From a virus (Duplodnaviria > Heunggongvirae > Uroviricota > Caudoviricetes): a DNA stretch of 35,845 bases. The notes beneath the pieces are model-generated. The model saw only the letters and a program-made list of their open reading frames with translations, did no database searches and had not been told where the DNA came from. This document shows, in pieces, positions 1 to 35,502 of this stretch; the stretch's first letter is position 1, and each line of letters opens with the position of its first letter. The stretch is from IMG/VR virus record IMGVR_UViG_2671180473_000015. The stretch is one strand, 5' to 3'. The position numbers and the translations under genes were made by a program.

Positions 1-573
1 ATGTTTTGCGAAGAAAAAGTAGCTCAAATGGCTGCATACCTACTTCTTAAGCGAGGTGGGCGCATGGCATATCTGAAATTGATGAAGCTGCTCTATCTGT
101 CTAACCGCAAGTCGATTTTGAAGCATGGCAGGATGATCGGCGAAGATAGCCTTTACTCTATGAAATTTGGTCCAGTCATGTCGAATACGCTGAACTTGAT
201 TCGTGGTAAGGCTGAAGGTATTGGTGACTACTGGTACAACCTGATAGAGACGAACGGGCATGATGTGTTGTTGCGTTCAGATCCGAGGGAAATGGATGCA
301 GACGAGGTCTTTGATGAGTTGAGCCGTGCAGATATCCGGATTTTAGATGAAATCTATTCTCTGTATGGGCATATGAACCGATTTGATCTCGCAAACATGA
401 CGCATTTAGAAAGCGTTTGTCCAGAGTGGCACAATCCTGGCAATTCTCGTAAGCCTATAGACCTGAAAGAAATGCTGATCAGTGAGGGTAAAAGCGAGGA
501 TGAGGCTAATCGTATAATTGGCAAAATGGAAGAATCTCAGAAACTTAAGGAATTTTCTTTGCAATTATCATGA
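1..573 (+). CDS. Panacea-domain (DUF4065) phage-associated protein, SocA/GepA-like putative antitoxin
   Basis: 190-aa ORF starting at window position 1 (N-terminus may lie upstream). The segment AQMAAYLLLKRGGRMAYLKLMKLLYLSNR matches the conserved helix of DUF4065/Panacea proteins as I recall them. Stop overlaps the next ORF start (ATGA at 570-573). Confidence 0.6.
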   Translation: MFCEEKVAQMAAYLLLKRGGRMAYLKLMKLLYLSNRKSILKHGRMIGEDSLYSMKFGPVMSNTLNLIRGKAEGIGDYWYNLIETNGHDVLLRSDPREMDADEVFDELSRADIRILDEIYSLYGHMNRFDLANMTHLESVCPEWHNPGNSRKPIDLKEMLISEGKSEDEANRIIGKMEESQKLKEFSLQLS

Positions 574-989
574 CGGATTATCAGCCATACAGGAAAGGAA
601 CTGTGCTTGCCCCAACTGGGCCATGCAATCATCTTCATGTGATTTGTAATGATCCTGTTTATTACCCCGTTAACGATTGTTATTGTGTTTTAGTTGTTAA
701 TATTTCTAGTATCAAGGATGGTGTCCCCCACGATCCGTCTTGCGTCTTGAATTCTGGTGATCATCGCTTTATCAAGCATCCAAGTTATGTTGTTTACGCT
801 GAAGCTATAATTTGGCGAGTGGATAACATGGTTAGAAAGCAGCGATCGGGTGAGATTTCCGTTCATGATGATATGCCAGAAGCTACATTCAATAGAATTC
901 TGGACGGTTTTGATATATCTGATGAAGTTACGCCAAAGAACCTTAAATTTAAAAATAAATATTGCGTATCATCTATTGATGATGAGTAA
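570..989 (+). CDS. hypothetical protein translationally coupled to the Panacea-domain gene; candidate toxin partner
   Basis: 139-aa ORF whose ATG overlaps the upstream stop (ATGA). No family recognised. Contains an R-x6-H motif (RSGEISVH) reminiscent of HEPN, which is speculative. AT-rich. Confidence 0.45.
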   Translation: MTDYQPYRKGTVLAPTGPCNHLHVICNDPVYYPVNDCYCVLVVNISSIKDGVPHDPSCVLNSGDHRFIKHPSYVVYAEAIIWRVDNMVRKQRSGEISVHDDMPEATFNRILDGFDISDEVTPKNLKFKNKYCVSSIDDE

Positions 990-1028: not shown

Positions 1029-1202
1029 ATGGAAGATCAAAAAGCAACCAAGCCACAGGTTAAGTTCGACACAATGAAAGCATTCGCAGGTATGGGTGCT
1101 GCTGTTGAAGTTCTGATGAAGGCTGCTCCTAATGCGTTCACTCACGCTACTGTCTCTGGTAAAGAGCAGCAGGGTAAGCTTCGTCGTCGCAAAGCAGCAT
1201 GA
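1029..1202 (+). CDS. small hypothetical protein (57 aa)
   Basis: ATG at 1029, TGA at 1200-1202, immediately followed by a strong intrinsic terminator. Below the 60-aa cut-off of the ORF track. No recognisable family. Confidence 0.3.
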   Translation: MEDQKATKPQVKFDTMKAFAGMGAAVEVLMKAAPNAFTHATVSGKEQQGKLRRRKAA

Positions 1203-1249: not shown

Positions 1250-1531
1250 TTAGTGATGTTCTTTGCCCTTCTGTTTGCCTGTTCTGACCTGTTCCCACTC
1301 GATACGTCCTTCTTCTCGTCTTTTGTCTATGTATTCCGCAAGATCCTGAATATTGATGCAACGTTTTGCTTTTTGTGATGTACCGATGCGATATGTAGGT
1401 ACAGGCAACTTACAAGCGTTTGCTTTTGCTTCTGCTGTGGCTGGACTCATACCAAAGTATTTTTGACTAACTGCTGAGAGTTCAATGTTTGGGGTATTGA
1501 ATTCAGCCATCAGTAAAAACAAGGTATTCAT
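1250..1531 (-). CDS. PrtN/AlpA-like excisionase-family small DNA-binding protein (putative)
   Basis: 93-aa ORF. N-terminus MNTLFLLMAEF and the motif PTYRIGTSQKAKRCINIQDLAEYIDKRREE resemble the PrtN / phage excisionase-like family from memory. Confidence 0.5.
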   Translation of the reverse strand: MNTLFLLMAEFNTPNIELSAVSQKYFGMSPATAEAKANACKLPVPTYRIGTSQKAKRCINIQDLAEYIDKRREEGRIEWEQVRTGKQKGKEHH

Positions 1532-1567
1532 ATCATTTCTCCATCATAACCGGCTGCACCCGGTGAG

Positions 1568-2383
1568 TTACTTATTCATTTCAATAATATTATTTTCTAT
1601 CATTGATTTATTTAAAACCAAAGAAGGAGCAAGATGGTTGTCTATTTTAAACAATGCATAACTTTTAAACTGTTGGTGATATCCGTAACTAATAAGGATG
1701 CTAGAAAAATCTCTTAATTCATCTTCTTTTAAAAAATTAAAATGAAATGGGTTGTCACCATTTATGAACAATGAAACATCTATTATGCAGTATTTCTCTC
1801 CGTTGTCATTTGCATAGAAAAAAATATAAGACATTCTGTTTGTTAAGACAATGCCATTAAATTTTCTTATGTCTGTAGCTATTTTGTTTTCCATGTTTGG
1901 TGCTACATATTTATTTTCAGAAATACATTTAATTTCATCTCCAGATGTCGTGATTATATAAAAATGAAACTTATCAGAAATATCTAACTTAACTACGCCA
2001 TCATTATTGTAAAGGCTGCTAAATTTTGGTGGTTCAACTTTTAAAGAATCATAGTTCTTTAAAAGAAGAGGGGAGTCAAATTTAATAACTTGTAGTATCC
2101 CTTTACCTTCAACCTCCATATTGATTGAAGATATAGCAATTGCATTATCTCTTTTATTATTCAGGATTATGGTTGATATATGCATGTCATATATTCTACT
2201 TGCATTTGCTGAATACGACACTGTCACCTTTTTTGATATTTTTTGCACGCCAAAATATATAGTGAAGGCAGCGGCAAGAATAGATAAGAATTTAATGTCA
2301 AATAAGGACCATAGCCACATTAGTTGCTCAATTGCTTCAGAGTTAATCATTTGCTTTACCATTATCGCTGTAATACAACACAT
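1568..2383 (-). CDS. hypothetical single-pass membrane protein encoded in a strongly AT-rich segment (moron-like)
   Basis: Long minus-strand ORF (track 1568..2401 with TTG start; first ATG gives 2383). Hydrophobic N-terminal segment FLSILAAAFTIYFGV followed by a long soluble domain. Local AT content is far above the rest of the prophage. Start codon uncertain (ATG candidates at 2383, 2362, 2350; no clear SD). Confidence 0.5.
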   Translation of the reverse strand: MCCITAIMVKQMINSEAIEQLMWLWSLFDIKFLSILAAAFTIYFGVQKISKKVTVSYSANASRIYDMHISTIILNNKRDNAIAISSINMEVEGKGILQVIKFDSPLLLKNYDSLKVEPPKFSSLYNNDGVVKLDISDKFHFYIITTSGDEIKCISENKYVAPNMENKIATDIRKFNGIVLTNRMSYIFFYANDNGEKYCIIDVSLFINGDNPFHFNFLKEDELRDFSSILISYGYHQQFKSYALFKIDNHLAPSLVLNKSMIENNIIEMNK

Positions 2384-2504
2384 GTGTGTATATATACGCA
2401 ATGCAATTATTTTGCAAGTGCTTCATTTACTATCAATAGCTACGTCACGTTATTGTTTAATGGTTCTTTATAGGGGCGGCAATAGTTAAAATTATCGCTT
2501 CCGT

Positions 2505-2526
2505 AAATGCCCCCGCAGGGGCATTT
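2505..2526 (-). terminator. stem-loop downstream of the YfdQ-like gene (weak terminator or RNA stability element)
   Basis: Perfect 9-bp stem AAATGCCCC / GGGGCATTT with a 4-nt loop. No clean U-tract on the minus strand, so termination efficiency is uncertain. Confidence 0.3.
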
Positions 2527-2538
2527 GCAGTAATGAAA

Positions 2539-3363
2539 TCAGGCGGTGAAAGTACCAATAAAGGTTTCTACTTTGCTGTCTTTGAATTTCTCAACAAGCA
2601 GATCACGAAATTCGTTAGCCATTTCTTCCTGTACCGCTTCCAGCTGAATAATGCGCAGAACCAGTACAGGACGATCGCCAGTGATAATGCTGAGGCGTAA
2701 TTTAAACGGACGTTCTTTCAGACCTTCAAACGGAACGCATTTAAATTCAAATGCCACTGGCATAATGTCTTTGGTCTTCGCTTCGACAGACTCCATCAGG
2801 GAGCGTTTGCCGCTGAAGTCATTATCTTCAAAATCAGCGGTCTGGTTCGCTTCAATTGTGATTTTACGGATCGCCGCAGCCGCTTTGGTTGCCTGAATGG
2901 CGTCACCATTAGCATCAAAGCCCACAAGGTAGTCGGCCCAGTCTTCAATCCATTCTGCCAGTGACTTCTGGGAGTTACGCTCGCCATTAACAGACAACAG
3001 AGCAGAGAACGGAGCTGTCTTTTTCAGTTTGAGAGTGGCGGTGTTATCTGCGTGACCTGGTTCATCAATAGTACCCAGGTTAAGAACACTGACGGCACGC
3101 ATATTATCAGCATCGATAAAGCAGCGGGTGCCTTCATCTGCAAGATCTTTAGAATAACGAGTAAAGTCATCGATGCTGGCAGTGGAAAGCGCACCACGGA
3201 AACGGAAACGATTTAAATTTAATTTTTCCAGATCATGAATGCGGAAATTCTCAGGCAATGCCACAGCATCGGCACCAATCTTACTGATAATTTCATTAAC
3301 ACCCTGAGCAGAAATAAGGGCATGGATTTGATTAATTGCGGTTGCGTCTAAGTTCTGAGACAT
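2539..3363 (-). CDS. DUF2303 / YfdQ-like prophage protein
   Basis: 274-aa ORF. Length and sequence character match what I recall of the YfdQ (DUF2303) family of E. coli CPS-53-type prophages. Follows the YfdP-like gene in the same leftward operon. Confidence 0.55.
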
Positions 3364-10598: not shown

Positions 10599-11594
10599 GT
10601 GACCGTGAGAGCACTACTGACCCCTGAAATTGCCCCGCGTATGGGGATCGTATTGTTCAGGCCAGGTTCAGAGCTGATGCCCCTGTTTATGCAGGGGCGT
10701 GTTCTGCTGGAGCCTGAGCCGGAACGTTATTCATCTTTCGCCAGTGGTGCCGTTCCGGCGGCATCACAACCGCTGGCGGATGATCCTGCCGTTCGGGCCG
10801 TGTTCCGCAATGAGGCAGTGATCCGTCGTGCTGGTGGCGTGGAATGTCTTGAAAGCTGGTTACTTCGTGAAAAAGGCTGCCAGTGGCCTCATTCCGACTG
10901 GCACAGCGAGAACATGACCACAATGCGACACGCTCCGGGCGCAATCCGTCTGTGCTGGCACTGCGATAACCAGCTGCGCGATCAGTTCACGGAACGGCTG
11001 GAATCAATGGCAACGGATAACTGTGCCCGCTGGGTGTTGTCTGTTGTGCGTCGGGATCTCGGTTTTGATGATAGTCACGTTGTGACAATGCCGGAACTGT
11101 GCTGGTGGCTGATTCGTAATGACCTGGCGGATGCCTTACCGGAAAGTGCAGCCCGTAAGGCACTGAGATTACCAAAGCCTGTTGTGCCGTCTGTCACCCG
11201 GGAAAGTGACCTTGTGCCTTCGGTTCCTGCCACCAGCATCATCCAGGATAAGGCAAAAAAGGTGCTGGCGCTGAAAGTGGATCCGGAGTCGCCGGAGTCT
11301 TTTATGTTACGCCCAAAACGCCGCCGCTGGGTTAATGAAAAGTACACGCGCTGGGTTAAGACACAGCCGTGTGCATGTTGTGGAAAGCCTGCTGATGATC
11401 CCCACCACCTGATAGGCCACGGTCAGGGTGGAATGGGTACAAAAGCGCATGACCTCTTTGTGTTGCCTTTGTGCAGAAAGCATCACGACGAGCTGCATGC
11501 GGATACCGTGGCATTTGAAGAGAAGTATGGCTCCCAGCTGGAGCTGATATTTCGTTTTATCGATCGTGCGCTGGCAATTGGCGTATTGGCGTAA
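10599..11594 (+). CDS. DUF968 / YdfU-like protein with C-terminal Cys/His zinc-binding (HNH-like) motif
   Basis: 331-aa ORF with GTG start at 10599 (alternative GTG at 10605). C-terminus CACCGKPADDPHHLIGHGQGG...CRKHHDELH. Family assigned from memory. Confidence 0.55.
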   Translation: MTVRALLTPEIAPRMGIVLFRPGSELMPLFMQGRVLLEPEPERYSSFASGAVPAASQPLADDPAVRAVFRNEAVIRRAGGVECLESWLLREKGCQWPHSDWHSENMTTMRHAPGAIRLCWHCDNQLRDQFTERLESMATDNCARWVLSVVRRDLGFDDSHVVTMPELCWWLIRNDLADALPESAARKALRLPKPVVPSVTRESDLVPSVPATSIIQDKAKKVLALKVDPESPESFMLRPKRRRWVNEKYTRWVKTQPCACCGKPADDPHHLIGHGQGGMGTKAHDLFVLPLCRKHHDELHADTVAFEEKYGSQLELIFRFIDRALAIGVLA

Positions 11595-11607
11595 GTGGAG
11601 AACGAGC

Positions 11608-12360
11608 ATGAACCTTGAAGCCTTACCAAAATATTACTCCCCAAAATCTCCAAAATTGAGCGATGACGCACCGGCGACAGGCTCAGGTGGTTTAACGATT
11701 ACGGATGTGATGGCTGCGCAGGGGATGGTGCAGTCGAAAGCACCGCTTGGGTTTGCCTTATTCCTGGCAAAAGTTGGTGTTCAGGATCCTCAATTTGCGA
11801 TTGAAGGTCTGCTCAATTACGCGATGGCACTGGATAACCCGACATTGAACAAATTGAGTGAAGAAACCCGGTTACAGATCATCCCTTACCTTGTGAATTT
11901 TGCCTTTGCTGATTATTCCAGGTCTGCGGCAAGTAAGGCTCGCTGTGAGCATTGTGCTGGTACTGGATTTCATAATGTATTGCGCGAAGTGGTGAAACAC
12001 TCCAGAAGCGGGGAATCTGTTATCAAGGAAGAGTGGGTGAAGGAACTATGTCAGCATTGCCATGGTAAGGGAGAAGTCAGCACAGCGTGCAGAGGGTGTA
12101 AGGGTAAAGGTATTGTCCTGGATGAAAAAAGAACCCGGCTTCATGGTGTGCCTGTTTATAAGATTTGTGGGCGTTGCAATGGCAACCGGTTTAGCCGTTT
12201 ACCAACCACACTGGCGCGGCATCATGTCCAGAAACTGGTACCGGACCTGACGGATTATCAGTGGTACAAAGGATATGCAGACGTTATTAATAAACTGGTT
12301 ACAAAGTGCTGGCAGGAAGAAGCGTATGCTGAATCGCAATTGAGAAAAGTGACAAGATAG
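11608..12360 (+). CDS. Q: late-gene antitermination protein Q
   Basis: 250-aa product from the ATG at 11608 (SD GGAG 7 nt upstream). Paired CxxC zinc-finger motifs (CEHCAGTGF, CQHCHGKGE, CRGCKGKG, CGRCNGNRF) typical of Q antiterminators. Immediately upstream of a promoter-plus-terminator unit. Confidence 0.8.
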   Translation: MNLEALPKYYSPKSPKLSDDAPATGSGGLTITDVMAAQGMVQSKAPLGFALFLAKVGVQDPQFAIEGLLNYAMALDNPTLNKLSEETRLQIIPYLVNFAFADYSRSAASKARCEHCAGTGFHNVLREVVKHSRSGESVIKEEWVKELCQHCHGKGEVSTACRGCKGKGIVLDEKRTRLHGVPVYKICGRCNGNRFSRLPTTLARHHVQKLVPDLTDYQWYKGYADVINKLVTKCWQEEAYAESQLRKVTR

Positions 12361-12490: not shown

Positions 12491-12639
12491 GTGCCTGATG
12501 TCTCATGAAACTATGAAATGGATTGGTGCGTTAAACATTTTTTCTTATTATCTTTTAGATTTTGGAGAGATGGTTAACGTCTGTATTCCAGAAACTCGAT
12601 GGTTATTTAATAAATTAGTTTCAATGATGCTTCTAGGTT

Positions 12640-13065
12640 ATGACTGTAATGAAAAAGGTATTAATAGCAGCGATAGGTTTTTGTTTAGTTGGTTGTGCAG
12701 GTATGAAATTACCTGAGTATTCGCAAGTTAAAGCAAGTCCGTATTATACAGATTGCCGTGCGTTTGCCATGGATGTTTATAAAAATGATGGATACAGCAA
12801 AATTGCGAAAACTACTATCCTTAGCATGGATGATGTGAAAGCTAGATATATTGTGACAGGGTGTGTAGTTGCTATGGGGAAAAACACTGTAGAGGAAATC
12901 AAAGCTGATCTCTCTGCTAAAGGGAGTTCTTTTGGGCTTATCAGTGGAGCTTGTTCTAGTGCGGCATGTCGGGTTGATGTAGAGCAGCAAATGAACGCTT
13001 ATGTACTTGGTAGTTATTATGCTGCAAATAAAAAATTCCCGGATAAAATGAAAGCAGAGTTTTAA
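12640..13065 (+). CDS. lipoprotein encoded by an AT-rich moron between Q and the lysis genes
   Basis: 141-aa ORF. Signal peptide with lipobox (MKKVLIAAIGFCLVGCAG; Cys in LVGC). Several further Cys residues. The flanking region 12490-13140 is markedly AT-rich and bounded by two near-identical terminators. Confidence 0.65.
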   Translation: MTVMKKVLIAAIGFCLVGCAGMKLPEYSQVKASPYYTDCRAFAMDVYKNDGYSKIAKTTILSMDDVKARYIVTGCVVAMGKNTVEEIKADLSAKGSSFGLISGACSSAACRVDVEQQMNAYVLGSYYAANKKFPDKMKAEF

Positions 13066-13142
13066 GCAAACCTTGTTTTCGATTATATGTCGAAGATAAA
13101 TGTTAGTAACGGCATAATAAGTAAATATATAGCTGTGATAGC

Positions 13143-13642: not shown

Positions 13643-14695
13643 ATGAAAAATACTGTAAAAATAAACAGTGTTGATTTAATCAACGCTGATTGCCTGCATT
13701 TTATTCAGTCCCTGCCTGATGATTCCATTGACCTGATTGTTACCGATCCGCCTTACTTCAAGGTGAAACCCAACGGTTGGGACAATCAGTGGAAAGGGGA
13801 CGAAGATTACCTTAAGTGGCTGGACCACTGTCTGGCCCAGTTCTGGCGGGTGTTGAAACCTGCCGGAAGCCTTTACCTGTTCTGTGGGCATCGCCTGGCA
13901 TCTGATATTGAGATCATGATGCGTGAACGTTTCAACGTGCTTAACCATATCATCTGGGCGAAGCCGTCCGGACGTTGGAATGGGTGTAATAAAGAAAGTC
14001 TGCGCGCATATTTTCCTGCCACAGAGCGCGTTCTGTTTGCTGAACATTACCAGGGGCCATATCGCGGCAAAAGTGACGGCTATGCGGCAAAAGAAAGGGA
14101 ACTCAAACAGCACATAATGGCACCGCTGATATCGTATTTCAGGGATGCTCGTGCCGAACTGGGTATAACGGCAAAACAAATTGCCGAAGCCACAGGTAAG
14201 AAAAATATGGTTTCCCACTGGTTTGGTGCCAGTCAGTGGCAGTTGCCGAATGAGGCTGACTATCGGAAGTTACAGGCACTGTTTTCCCGTATAGCGGCAG
14301 AGAAGTTTCAGGAACAACAACTGGAACAACCACACCACCAGCTGGTGGCATCTTATGATTCACTGAATCGTAAATATTCTGAATTGCTGGATGAGTTTAA
14401 ATCTCTCCGGCGCTATTTCTCCGTATCAGTCTCCGTGCCTTATACCGATGTCTGGATGCATAAACCCGTTCAGTTCTACCCGGGGAAACATCCGTGTGAG
14501 AAACCGGCGGATATGCTCAGGCAAATAATCAATGCCAGTAGTCGACCAGGTGATCTGGTTGCTGATTTTTTTATGGGATCCGGTTCCACAATAAAAGCAG
14601 CAATGGCGCTGGGGCGTCGGGCCTTAGGTGTTGAGCTTGAGTCAGAGCGGTTTAATCAGACAGTGAAAGAGATAAACGAGCTGGTGGGGAAATAA
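13643..14695 (+). CDS. DNA methyltransferase, N4/N6 beta-class (DPPY motif before FxGxG motif)
   Basis: 350-aa ORF. Catalytic motif IVTDPPYF near the N-terminus and SAM-binding DFFMGSGST near the C-terminus (PF01555-type order). No cognate endonuclease in the window. Confidence 0.85.
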
Positions 14696-14900: not shown

Positions 14901-15140
14901 NNNNNNNNNNNNNNNNNNNNNNNNNNNNNNNNNNNNNNNNNNNNNNNNNNNNNNNNNNNNNNNNNNNNNNNNNNNNNNNNNNNNNNNNNNNNNNNNNNNN
15001 NNNNNNNNNNNNNNNNNNNNNNNNNNNNNNNNNNNNNNNNNNNNNNNNNNNNNNNNNNNNNNNNNNNNNNNNNNNNNNNNNNNNNNNNNNNNNNNNNNNN
15101 NNNNNNNNNNNNNNNNNNNNNNNNNNNNNNNNNNNNNNNN
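14901..15140. other. N-run (240 nt) - assembly gap or masked sequence
   Basis: Continuous n characters; removes the holin 3' end and the holin-endolysin junction. Confidence 0.95.
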
Positions 15141-31294: not shown

Positions 31295-31896
31295 AAACGG
31301 GGTCCGAAGCCATCCGGGCGCTGGCCATGCAGATCCCGGCGTTTCGTCAGAAACTGAATGAGGGCTGGTATCAGGTGCGCATTGCCGGGCGTGATGCAGG
31401 CGAAAATGAATTATCTGCCCGTCTTAATGAGCCGCTGGCAAATGGTGCCGTGATCCACATCGTGCCGCGTCTGGCGGGAGCTAAAAGTGGCGGTGTGTTT
31501 CAGGTGGTGCTTGGGGCGGCGCTGATTGCGGTGGCATGGTGGAACCCTGTGGGCTGGCTGGGGNNNNNNNNNNNNNNNNNNNNNNNNNNNNNNNNNNNNN
31601 NNNNNNNNNNNNNNNNNNNNNNNNNNNNNNNNNNNNNNNNNNNNNNNNNNNNNNNNNNNNNNNNNNNNNNNNNNNNNNNNNNNNNNNNNNNNNNNNNNNN
31701 NNNNNNNNNNNNNNNNNNNNNNNNNNNNNNNNNNNNNNNNNNNNNNNNNNNNNNNNNNNNNNNNNNNNNNNNNNNNNNNNNNNNNNNNNNNNNNNNNNNN
31801 NNNNNNNNNNNNNNNNNNNNNNNNNNNNNNNNNNNNNNNNNNNTCAGCACGGCAGACGAAGGGGATGGTGGTCAGGTTGTGGTGATTGGTCGCTGA
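31192..31896 (+). CDS. I: tail assembly protein I (interrupted by an N-run)
   Basis: Starts MAATHTLPLASPGMARICLYGDLQRFGRRIDLRV as in lambda I. Overlaps the 3' end of K in another frame, as in lambda. The middle is lost in the N-run 31564-31843. Ends ...STADEGDGGQVVVIGR. Confidence 0.75.
   Translation: MAATHTLPLASPGMARICLYGDLQRFGRRIDLRVKTGSEAIRALAMQIPAFRQKLNEGWYQVRIAGRDAGENELSARLNEPLANGAVIHIVPRLAGAKSGGVFQVVLGAALIAVAWWNPVGWLGXXXXXXXXXXXXXXXXXXXXXXXXXXXXXXXXXXXXXXXXXXXXXXXXXXXXXXXXXXXXXXXXXXXXXXXXXXXXXXXXXXXXXXXXXXXXXXSTADEGDGGQVVVIGR
31564..31843. other. N-run (280 nt) - assembly gap or masked sequence
   Basis: Continuous n characters inside gene I. Confidence 0.95.

Positions 31897-31956: not shown

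Positions 31957-35502
<3,546 letters not shown>

What the first reader, a model, noticed from the sequence alone, without database searches (positions are those of the whole stretch)
1568..2401. Strongly AT-rich membrane-protein gene with its own upstream region, compositionally foreign to the prophage
The ORF encodes an N-terminally membrane-anchored protein of about 270 aa with no recognisable family. Its AT content is far above neighbouring phage genes, typical of a recently acquired moron. Single-pass membrane proteins at this location in prophages are often superinfection-exclusion or abortive-infection factors. A hairpin at 2505-2526 and an AT-rich stretch at 2402-2500 separate it from the upstream YfdQ-like gene, suggesting an independent promoter.
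Basis: partly seen in the sequence, partly recalled or inferred. Interest (0 to 1): 0.6.

Follow-up and report, generated by a model that had tools for sequence, protein, structure and literature searches.

The report
AT-rich membrane-protein cassette in a prophage
A single, very AT-rich gene for a membrane-anchored protein of an uncharacterised family sits as a swapped-in cassette just upstream of the excisionase gene of an E. coli prophage; relatives occupy the accessory slots of unrelated phages, satellite-like elements, islands and plasmids, so it is a reasonable but untested candidate anti-phage gene.

Summary
Window 1568-2350 (-) encodes a real 260-aa protein; the 277-aa ORF to 2401 is only the mechanical maximum. 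GC is 29.0% against 51.2% for the window, the lowest value in it. The protein has one N-terminal hydrophobic helix and no Pfam, NCBIfam, PADLOC or PDB relative; only PHROG 14996 (function unknown) matches.

Comparison with other E. coli prophages defines a 926-nt cassette (1564-2489): 139 nt of its own AT-rich leader plus the CDS. It replaces about 3 kb of early-left genes (yfdR to exonuclease) between conserved yfdQ and a PrtN-type excisionase. It occurs in 99 of 5,426 complete E. coli genomes.

The family is larger than it first looks: 221 representatives, nearly all about 250 aa. AlphaFold gives pLDDT 93: a membrane helix, an Ig-like sandwich and an unmatched alpha/beta domain. Charge bias puts the globular part in the cytoplasm.

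Relatives are lone AT-rich genes in the P2 gpQ-gpA hotspot, in satellite-like cargo, beside a type II-A retron, upstream of xis-int, in nin-like regions and on Acinetobacter plasmids, with no conserved partner.

Best reading: a mobile single-gene accessory cassette, most probably a membrane-anchored anti-phage factor. That function is inferred, not shown. An own promoter is not demonstrated, and the hairpin belongs to yfdQ.

The parts
1568..2350 (-). CDS, 260 aa, uncharacterised family (PHROG 14996; RefSeq WP_047654657.1 'hypothetical protein'). Predicted architecture: membrane helix, Ig-like beta-sandwich (about residues 42-135), alpha/beta C-terminal domain (about 156-260).
2246..2296 (-). 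Codons for the hydrophobic core of the membrane helix (residues 19-35, IKFLSILAAAFTIYFGV). The conserved juxtamembrane QKISKKV follows; K37 is 92% conserved family-wide.
2351..2489 (-). Cassette-specific AT-rich 5' leader (139 nt, 33.8% GC). Weak sigma-70-like hexamers: TTGATA-16-CAAAAT (2436-2409) and TACACA-18-GATAAT (2390-2361). Promoter function is not shown.
1564..2489 (-). The whole exchangeable cassette (926 nt, 29.8% GC). Homology to relatives that lack the gene stops at 2490 and resumes at 1563. In strain W224N the same slot holds about 3.1 kb (yfdR, ead/Ea22-like, DUF551, 3'-5' exonuclease).
2505..2526 (-). Hairpin with a 9-bp stem and no U-tract. It belongs to the conserved yfdQ 3' flank, not to the cassette.
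2539..3363 (-). Upstream flank: yfdQ (DUF2303), a conserved early-left gene.
1250..1531 (-). Downstream flank: PrtN-family protein (PHROG 1300, excisionase). Its conserved 5' flank (1532-1563) includes a small 5-bp hairpin at 1549-1564.

Best explanation
Window 1564-2489 is an autonomous, horizontally exchanged single-gene accessory cassette (a moron-like module). It has replaced the usual early-left accessory genes between yfdQ and the excisionase gene of an e14/CPS-53-like lambdoid prophage.

Its product is an inner-membrane protein held by one N-terminal helix. The short acidic N-terminus faces outward. A two-domain globular part (Ig-like sandwich plus an unmatched alpha/beta domain) lies on the cytoplasmic face.

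The most likely role is inter-virus competition. The protein would protect the lysogen, and so the element carrying it, against other phages.

The likeliest way it works is like membrane-anchored single-gene abortive-infection proteins such as AbiP and PdpSau. The cytoplasmic domains recognise a phage product or the DNA-entry or assembly machinery at the inner face of the membrane. The conserved helix and juxtamembrane segment then mediate oligomerisation or membrane perturbation that stops the infection.

Shown: the cassette boundaries, the composition, the family and its distribution, and the absence of any partner gene. Predicted: the fold and the topology. Inferred only: the defence function and every mechanistic step.
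For: Cassette:
- Homology with about 2,760 yfdQ-bearing E. coli genomes ends at about window 2489/2490 and resumes at 1563. Only 99 genomes carry the gene, and 99 records cover at least 80% of the yfdQ-gene-xis query. I take these to be the same 99 records.
- The slot otherwise holds yfdR and other early genes.

Real, constrained gene:
- dN/dS is 0.24-0.36.
- There are 221 representatives at E<=1e-3, nearly all 235-280 aa with the same layout.
- The AlphaFold model has pLDDT 93.3 and pTM 0.82.

Topology:
- There is a single hydrophobic segment.
- K+R is higher on the C-flank than on the N-flank in 110 of 127 members. Mean net charge is -0.9 on the N-flank and +2.1 on the C-flank.
- The juxtamembrane segment is the most conserved region.

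Accessory, mobile, stand-alone: relatives are lone genes of 25-33% GC inside roughly 42-53% GC surroundings. They occur in many unrelated settings:
- Providencia P2-like prophages, between portal gpQ/Ogr and replication gene gpA. This is the cos-proximal defence hotspot of P2-like phages that holds old and tin in P2 (PMC9122126).
- A Citrobacter primase-bearing, satellite-like element, just before xis-int and in the same cargo as a methyl-directed restriction enzyme.
- Pantoea, directly beside a type II-A retron: RT 1e-106, NDT 9e-59.
- Immediately upstream of Exc plus integrase in two other prophage types.
- nin-like regions.
- An island with HEPN and DUF4062 genes.
- Small Acinetobacter plasmids.

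No partner: neighbouring genes are not homologous between contexts.

Own transcription: in several contexts the gene is alone on its strand, so it must be transcribed on its own there.

Base rate: 6 of 8 randomly chosen unknown-function loci from P4 hotspots protected against phages (PMC13586616).

Precedent for the architecture: PdpSau and AbiP have an N-terminal membrane helix, a cytoplasmic domain, are single genes and act by abortive infection (PMC10127798).
Against: - There is no experimental datum of any kind.
- No PADLOC model matches the protein.
- Recognised defence genes are adjacent in only about 3 of about 14 distinct contexts. Other neighbours gave no PADLOC hit.
- Pseudomonas relatives sit in small islets among housekeeping genes.
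- In this window the gene is co-oriented with the early-left operon. There is no canonical terminator upstream, and promoter-like sites are no more frequent than chance. It may be expressed only after induction.
- At 29% GC it is a likely H-NS target in E. coli (general knowledge) and could be silent.
- No homolog exists in 50,697 deposited phage genomes.
- The topology rests on the positive-inside rule alone.
Confidence: 0.45

Rival explanations
1. It is an early lytic-cycle accessory gene. It is transcribed from the pL-type early-left promoter only after induction, and it acts on the host membrane or on a host protein to favour the phage's own development, in the manner of kil, cIII or the ea genes of lambda. 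It has no role in the lysogen.
For: The gene is co-oriented with yfdP-yfdQ-xis. There is no U-tract terminator between yfdQ and the gene. It replaces other early-left genes. In Klebsiella and in L041 it is co-oriented within nin-like early regions. No convincing or conserved promoter was found.
Against: Relatives occur where there is no lytic programme to serve: small Acinetobacter plasmids, a Pantoea island beside a retron, Pseudomonas chromosomal islets and cargo of a satellite-like element. In the P2 hotspot and elsewhere the gene lies on its own strand. The gene is dispensable, since most yfdQ prophages lack it.
Confidence: 0.15
2. It is a lysogenic-conversion or host-fitness factor unrelated to phages, for example one that modulates envelope physiology, stress tolerance or colonisation, carried as cargo by many mobile elements.
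For: It is a membrane protein carried by prophages, plasmids and islands in gut and extra-intestinal E. coli, Shigella, Klebsiella and Citrobacter. Most neighbours are not recognisable defence genes.
Against: There is no signal peptide or lipobox, and the globular part is predicted to be cytoplasmic, so it is not surface-exposed. Host sources are mixed (human, poultry, bovine, pig, opossum, seawater), with no visible pathotype link. It recurs in the P2 gpQ-gpA hotspot and beside a retron or restriction genes.
Confidence: 0.15
3. It is a classical superinfection-exclusion protein that blocks DNA entry at the inner membrane, of the HK97 gp15, T4 Imm/Sp or P22 SieA kind.
For: It is a small inner-membrane-anchored protein encoded next to the integration module of prophages, and it is a single gene. 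The helix and juxtamembrane segment are conserved, which suggests a specific interaction within the membrane.
Against: The positive-inside rule puts about 220 of the 260 residues in the cytoplasm in 110 of 127 members. That is an unexpected place for a domain that meets an incoming tail or tape-measure protein. There is no sequence or fold relation to any such protein in PADLOC, Pfam, PDB or BFVD.
Confidence: 0.15
4. It is a selfish or decaying passenger with no current function in E. coli, silenced by H-NS and kept only by linkage to the prophage.
For: GC is very low. Some copies are inactivated: an IS1 insertion in strain E89 and a split CDS in B19374. It is rare, at 1.8% of complete genomes.
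Against: There is purifying selection within E. coli, with dN/dS 0.24-0.36. Full-length conservation reaches across genera down to about 20% identity, and the fold is predicted with confidence. The gene has been captured repeatedly and independently by different elements.
Confidence: 0.1

Closest known systems
Membrane-anchored single-gene abortive-infection proteins: lactococcal AbiP and staphylococcal prophage PdpSau (PMC10127798)
   Same: They are single genes carried as prophage accessory cargo. They have an N-terminal membrane-binding helix with the rest of the protein in the cytoplasm, a similar size class and no partner gene.
   Different: PdpSau and AbiP have an OB-fold-like nucleic-acid-binding region. 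This protein has an Ig-like sandwich plus an unmatched alpha/beta domain. There is no sequence relation (PADLOC and Pfam negative). No phenotype is known here.
Cargo of the P2 gpA-gpQ and P4 psu-int defence hotspots (old, tin, PARIS and others; PMC9122126, PMC13586616)
   Same: Relatives occupy exactly the P2-type slot between portal/Ogr and gpA in Providencia prophages, and the cargo region before the integrase gene of a primase-bearing satellite-like element. Like old and tin, they lie apart from the phage's core operons.
   Different: The E. coli copy is in a lambdoid prophage slot (yfdQ-xis) that the papers I read do not describe as a hotspot. The protein matches none of the systems named in those papers, judging by their descriptions. 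The Citrobacter element was not shown to have psu or sid, so calling it P4-like is loose.
Inner-membrane superinfection-exclusion proteins (HK97 gp15, T4 Imm/Sp, P22 SieA; PMC10883804 for SieA)
   Same: They are prophage-encoded small inner-membrane proteins that act alone.
   Different: The predicted topology puts the bulk of this protein in the cytoplasm. There is no sequence or structural similarity. SieA is described from my own knowledge as a multi-pass protein.
Mycobacterial Mpr (membrane-anchored DUF4352 Ig-like domain, phage resistance; PMC12596739)
Lambdoid morons (Hendrix-type: bor, lom, HK97 gp15 and others)
   Same: A discrete block of deviant composition with its own leader, lying between genes that are conserved in relatives.
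   Different: It is a replacement of about 3.1 kb, not a pure insertion between genes that are adjacent elsewhere. Its own promoter and terminator are not demonstrated.

Membership tests
PHROG 14996 (phage orthologous group, function unknown) | Full-length match to the family HMM | tested here: met
   E = 2.9e-178; residues 18-277 of the long ORF match profile positions 1-260 of 260
Any Pfam-A or NCBIfam family | Score above the curated cut-off | tested here: not met
   The only hit is Ig_TMEM131L_3 at 16 bits against a cut-off of 28. NCBIfam gives nothing. Only scattered single-member hits at E<=0.01 appear among 127 members.
Known or candidate defence systems in PADLOC-DB v2.0.0 | HMM match to a component protein | tested here: not met
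   0 families at E<=0.1. Systems described after 2023 and DefenseFinder-only models could not be tested.
Moron (autonomous accessory transcription unit in a lambdoid phage) | Deviant nucleotide composition relative to the flanking phage genes | tested here: met
   29.0% GC against 51.2% for the window, z = -3.76
Moron (autonomous accessory transcription unit in a lambdoid phage) | Present or absent as a discrete block between flanks that are conserved in related phages | tested here: met
   Breakpoints at 2489/2490 and 1563/1564. It replaces about 3.1 kb rather than being a simple insertion.
Moron (autonomous accessory transcription unit in a lambdoid phage) | Own promoter and terminator; expression from the repressed prophage | tested here: inconclusive
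   Only weak hexamers (9 of 12), no more frequent than in shuffles. There is no U-tract terminator on either side. Upstream DNA is not conserved. Relatives alone on their strand imply their own promoter there. Expression itself cannot be tested with these tools.
Membrane-anchored single-gene Abi (AbiP / PdpSau kind) | N-terminal membrane helix with a cytoplasmic C-terminal part; no partner gene | tested here: met
   By prediction only: one hydrophobic segment and positive-inside bias in 110 of 127 members. Neighbours are unrelated between contexts.
Membrane-anchored single-gene Abi (AbiP / PdpSau kind) | OB-fold-like nucleic-acid-binding domain (as described in PMC10127798) | tested here: not met
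Membrane-anchored single-gene Abi (AbiP / PdpSau kind) | Abortive-infection phenotype | not testable with these tools
   Needs infection assays.
Inner-membrane superinfection-exclusion proteins (HK97 gp15 / Imm / Sp / SieA kind) | Blocks genome entry; the functional part faces the periplasm or lies within the membrane | tested here: inconclusive
   The charge distribution predicts a cytoplasmic bulk, which argues against this. The phenotype is not testable here.
P2/P4 hotspot defence cargo (Rousset et al. 2022) | Located between gpA and gpQ of a P2-like phage, or between psu and int of a P4-like satellite | tested here: met
   Met for relatives only: P0028, L044 and L047-L049 lie between portal/Ogr and gpA. 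It is not met for the window copy, which is in a lambdoid prophage.
DUF4352 (Mpr-type) | Pfam DUF4352 match | tested here: not met

The most novel reading that the evidence does not exclude
The gene founds a previously unrecognised family of single-protein anti-phage immunity. The protein is membrane-tethered and cytoplasm-facing, with an Ig-like sensor domain joined to a domain of unmatched fold. It is kept persistently AT-rich and shuttles as a one-gene cassette between lambdoid, P2-like and podovirus-like prophages, satellite-like elements, islands and plasmids across Gammaproteobacteria. The yfdQ-xis junction of e14/CPS-53-like prophages would then be a further defence hotspot.
Probability: 0.35. 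Interest if true: 0.6.

Novelty: new member of a known kind. Interest (0 to 1): 0.42.

Why it matters
If the gene protects lysogens, it adds a compact (783-nt) defence family that current detection tools miss. It occurs in clinically relevant E. coli (including O25b:H4), Shigella, Klebsiella, Citrobacter and Providencia, so it bears on phage host range and phage therapy. It would also mark the slot just upstream of xis in a very common E. coli prophage type as a place to look for more such cargo; yfdQ flanks occur in about half of complete genomes. Its steady 25-33% GC across diverged relatives is a small puzzle of its own: it could reflect selection for silencing by H-NS-type proteins, or constant transfer. 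If the gene has no phenotype, it is simply one more uncharacterised prophage accessory gene.

Tried and rejected
- The first word-indexed protein search found only 11 clusters. The exhaustive HMMER search was needed to see the 221-member family. Re-searching with alignments added few proteins that could be looked up.
- The search for related loci failed with the 127-sequence alignment. With the 20-sequence alignment it found only 3 genome loci.
- A conserved partner gene was rejected. The 477-aa, 427-aa and 361-aa neighbours are unrelated to each other.
- A conserved promoter was not found. E. coli-Citrobacter DNA homology covers only the CDS plus 39 nt at the 3' end. Upstream alignments and hexamer scoring show nothing shared.
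- The hairpin as a terminator for this gene was rejected. It belongs to the yfdQ flank and has no U-tract.
- The apparent low-GC patches and the three-frame split of tail gene J are an artefact of runs of N in the window. The same Ns slightly depressed the whole-window GC; this is corrected.
- Accession and PHROG-number searches of the literature gave no hit. The new systems named in PMC13586616 do not fit this protein by description.
- Extra PADLOC scans of neighbours in five contexts found no further defence genes.
Full report
**1. What is at the coordinates**

The minus-strand ORF 1568..2401 (277 aa) exists, but the real gene is 1568..2350, 260 aa. Three results agree on this:
- PHROG 14996 aligns to residues 18-277 only (E 2.9e-178).
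- RefSeq annotates the identical 783-nt gene as hypothetical protein WP_047654657.1.
- Every homolog starts at the equivalent MIN/MLN.

The gene is 29.0% GC, with codon positions at 34/26/26%. The window contains four runs of N (14901-15140, 31564-31843, 32455-32681, 34451-34666). These depressed my first whole-window figure and created false low-GC patches. With Ns excluded the window is 51.2% GC. The gene lies at z = -3.76 and is the lowest 783-nt stretch; the next lowest elsewhere is 36.7%. Its neighbours are yfdQ at 45.5% and the excisionase gene at 41.1%.

The hairpin at 2505-2526 is real, with a 9-bp stem. The stretch 2402-2500 is 33.3% GC.

**2. It is a discrete cassette**

The surroundings are an e14/CPS-53-like lambdoid prophage. 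It lies next to zur and, in one relative, a dusA remnant, and carries ymfK/ymfT/ymfL, yfdP and yfdQ. A PrtN-family gene that PHROGs files as an excisionase follows, and then a Panacea-domain gene pair at the prophage end.

A 2.1-kb query spanning yfdQ, the gene and xis matches 2,763 of 5,426 complete E. coli genomes through yfdQ. The homology stops at about window 2489/2490, just past the hairpin. Only 99 records cover the whole query, the same number as carry the gene at all.

Direct alignment to strain W224N gives breakpoints at 2490 and 1563. That strain has the same yfdQ, the same xis and the same downstream genes. Its slot holds about 3.1 kb instead: yfdR, a hypothetical gene, an ead/Ea22-like gene, DUF551 genes and a 3'-5' exonuclease gene.

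The unit is therefore 1564-2489, 926 nt at 29.8% GC. It consists of 139 nt of its own AT-rich leader, the CDS, and 4 nt after the stop codon. It gives no information about this gene.

**3. Transcription**

Sigma-70-like hexamers in 1200-2800 are no more frequent than in shuffles: 5 found against 6.7 expected. The best two upstream of the gene score 9 of 12.

Between E. coli and Citrobacter, DNA similarity covers only the CDS and 39 nt downstream. Upstream regions from twelve contexts share no element.

In this window the gene is co-oriented with the early-left genes, with no canonical terminator on either side. Expression in the lysogen is therefore open.

Several relatives lie alone on their strand, so the family can be transcribed autonomously. 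They include the two Pantoea loci, L039/L040, and the P2-type loci, where the gene converges on gpA.

**4. The protein and its family**

Pfam, NCBIfam and PADLOC give nothing.

The word-indexed search found 11 clusters in E. coli/Shigella, Citrobacter and Klebsiella, all named 'hypothetical'. An exhaustive profile search of 1.84 billion representatives found 221 proteins at E<=1e-3 and 141 at E<=1e-10. Nearly all are 235-280 aa and match end to end.

In a 127-sequence alignment, K37, N65, P94, S111 and C142 are at least 90% conserved. The juxtamembrane segment and the first domain are the best-conserved regions. No member has a meaningful Pfam hit and the profile finds no PDB sequence.

Between E. 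coli alleles dN/dS is 0.24-0.36. Against Citrobacter, synonymous sites are saturated.

With the deep alignment AlphaFold2 gives pLDDT 93.3 and pTM 0.82. The model has a helix at 4-38, a beta-sandwich at about 42-135, a poorly defined linker near 145-151, and an alpha/beta domain from about 156 to a C-terminal helix at 248-259.

There is one hydrophobic segment (Kyte-Doolittle 1.68) and no second candidate. The N-flank is acidic and lacks K or R. The C-flank carries K37, K40 and K41. The same bias holds in 110 of 127 members. By the positive-inside rule the short N-terminus is outside and the two domains are cytoplasmic. This is a prediction, not a measurement.

**5. Where relatives live**

In every enterobacterial context the gene is a one-gene island of 25-33% GC inside roughly 42-53% GC DNA. 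Because this holds down to 30-40% identity, AT-richness is a lasting property of the family and not evidence of recent arrival. The distinct contexts are:
- **(a) This lambdoid yfdQ-xis slot.** It also appears in 15 IMG/VR contigs.
- **(b) Citrobacter.** The gene sits directly before a 68-aa gene and an integrase gene at the edge of elements. In one case the element carries AlpA, Ash, DUF5375 and a D5-type primase, plus a methyl-directed restriction enzyme (PADLOC 1e-100) in the same cargo. In the others the element carries CbtA/CbeA, antirestriction and RadC genes.
- **(c) Klebsiella.** The gene lies between an MT-A70 methylase gene and a regulator gene, in the early-right region of a prophage with podovirus-type structural genes.
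- **(d) Pantoea.** It is back-to-back with a type II-A retron (RT 1e-106, NDT 9e-59). In one genome the locus follows a P4-type primase gene; in the other it is near smpB.
- **(e) Buttiauxella.** It lies between an HNH protein gene and prophage tail-fibre genes.
- **(f) Two further prophage types.** It lies immediately upstream of Exc plus integrase.
- **(g) A locus beside antirepressor and DUF4145/MtlR-like genes**.
- **(h) A nin-like region before DinI and DUF968**.
- **(i) A locus next to two DNA methylase genes**.
- **(j) Providencia P2-like prophages.** The order is terminase, portal, Ogr, then the homolog plus an AT-rich 361-aa ORF, then gpA. This is the cos-proximal gpA-gpQ slot that Rousset et al. 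showed to be a defence hotspot; it holds old and tin in P2 (PMC9122126).
- **(k) An island with HEPN_LA2681, DUF4062, an M78 peptidase gene and MvaT**.
- **(l) Two small Acinetobacter plasmids**, one of which also carries mazEF.
- **(m) Small islets among housekeeping genes in Pseudomonas**.

The neighbouring genes are unrelated between contexts, so the gene functions as a single-gene module. No homolog exists in 50,697 deposited phage genomes, at either DNA or protein level.

**6. Interpretation**

The structural facts are firm. This is a mobile, stand-alone accessory gene, under purifying selection, that unrelated mobile elements have captured repeatedly in their variable regions.

A role in the lytic programme of one phage type fits poorly with its presence on plasmids, islands and a satellite-like element. 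A surface-exposed conversion factor fits poorly with the missing signal peptide and the predicted cytoplasmic bulk.

The best-supported function is inter-virus competition. The reasons are:
- Relatives occupy the P2 hotspot.
- Relatives sit beside a retron and beside restriction genes.
- Unknown genes in such hotspots have a high hit rate: 6 of 8 randomly chosen P4 loci protected against phages (PMC13586616).
- AbiP and PdpSau set a precedent: single genes with an N-terminal membrane helix and a cytoplasmic domain that act by abortive infection (PMC10127798).

I therefore propose a cytoplasm-facing, membrane-tethered sensor/effector, with the conserved helix and juxtamembrane segment taking part in the effector step. 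All of this is inference.

The weak points are as follows:
- Recognised defence neighbours appear in only about 3 of 14 contexts.
- No PADLOC model matches.
- There is no evidence of expression.
- The fold suggests no mechanism.

I put defence or exclusion of any kind at about 0.55-0.6. The specific cytoplasm-facing, Abi-like version I put at about 0.45.

**7. Comparison with what is known, and novelty**

The protein is a member of PHROG 14996 (function unknown) and of no characterised family. It resembles AbiP and PdpSau in architecture but lacks their OB-like domain. It resembles HK97 gp15, Imm or SieA only in being a prophage-encoded inner-membrane protein, and its predicted topology argues against that mode. 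It resembles Mpr/DUF4352 only at the level of a generic Ig-like fold. It meets two of the three moron criteria; its own promoter and terminator are unproven.

I could not test it against DefenseFinder or against systems published after PADLOC v2. Literature searches by accession found nothing.

I rate it a new member of a known kind, namely prophage or satellite accessory cargo that is a candidate single-gene defence. Interest is moderate: it is a clean, cheaply testable candidate, but nothing about it is yet surprising.

Noticed in passing
window 14901-15140, 30118, 31564-31843, 32455-32681, 34451-34666: Runs of N (964 in all). They produce false low-GC patches in composition profiles and make tail gene J (31957-35502) look split into three reading frames. 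This is an artefact of masked or unassembled sequence, not biology.
   Followed up: yes
window 12498-13142: A second AT-rich block (35.7% GC, 645 nt) lies between the Q antiterminator gene (11566-12360) and a DNA methylase gene (13643-14695). It is absent from the related O25b:H4 prophage. It holds a 141-aa ORF (12640-13065, PHROG 4748, unknown) containing the lipoprotein-like signal MKKVLIAAIGFCLVGCAG, and a 71-aa ORF (PHROG 37626). It is another moron candidate, at the classical post-Q position.
   Followed up: partly
window 1-573 and 570-989 (+): A Panacea/SocA-like antitoxin-domain gene (Pfam 1.8e-18) overlaps by 4 nt a 139-aa gene of unknown function (PHROG 19071). This is probably a PanA-type toxin-antitoxin pair, lying at the very end of the prophage beyond xis and next to zur. 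A relative (K71-77) carries a different Panacea pair at the same place.
   Followed up: partly
window 1029-1202 (+) and 1221-1246: A 57-aa ORF (PHROG 2741, annotated WP_000390072.1) converges on the excisionase gene. An 11-bp GC-rich hairpin with a T-run lies between them. It is the only convincing intrinsic terminator near the finding.
   Followed up: no
L019 28708-30607 (NZ_CP015085.1, other end of the related prophage): In the O25b:H4 relative, the far end of the same prophage carries a reverse-transcriptase gene plus a SLATT-domain gene next to DinI and the integrase gene. That suggests a second accessory or defence-type locus. The integrase gene lies at the opposite end of the prophage from the excisionase gene.
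   Followed up: no
E. coli genome hits H1 (NZ_CP121157.1) and H23 (NZ_CP142915.1): The target gene is interrupted by an IS1 element in strain E89 and is annotated as two CDS (833 nt aligned) in strain B19374. So it is occasionally inactivated in nature.
   Followed up: no
L047-L049 7831-8916 and L044 8777-9862: In Providencia P2-like prophages the homolog is always followed by a second AT-rich 361-aa ORF (26% GC, PHROG 17460, unknown) within the gpQ-gpA hotspot. It may be a second cargo gene, or a context-specific partner that is absent from E. coli.
   Followed up: partly
L014 8968-11026 and L015 8966-10985: A complete type II-A retron (RT plus an NDT-domain effector gene) lies next to the Pantoea homologs. 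In L014 it is downstream of a P4-type primase gene; in L015 it is in an island near smpB, flanked by polymorphic-toxin-like genes.
   Followed up: partly
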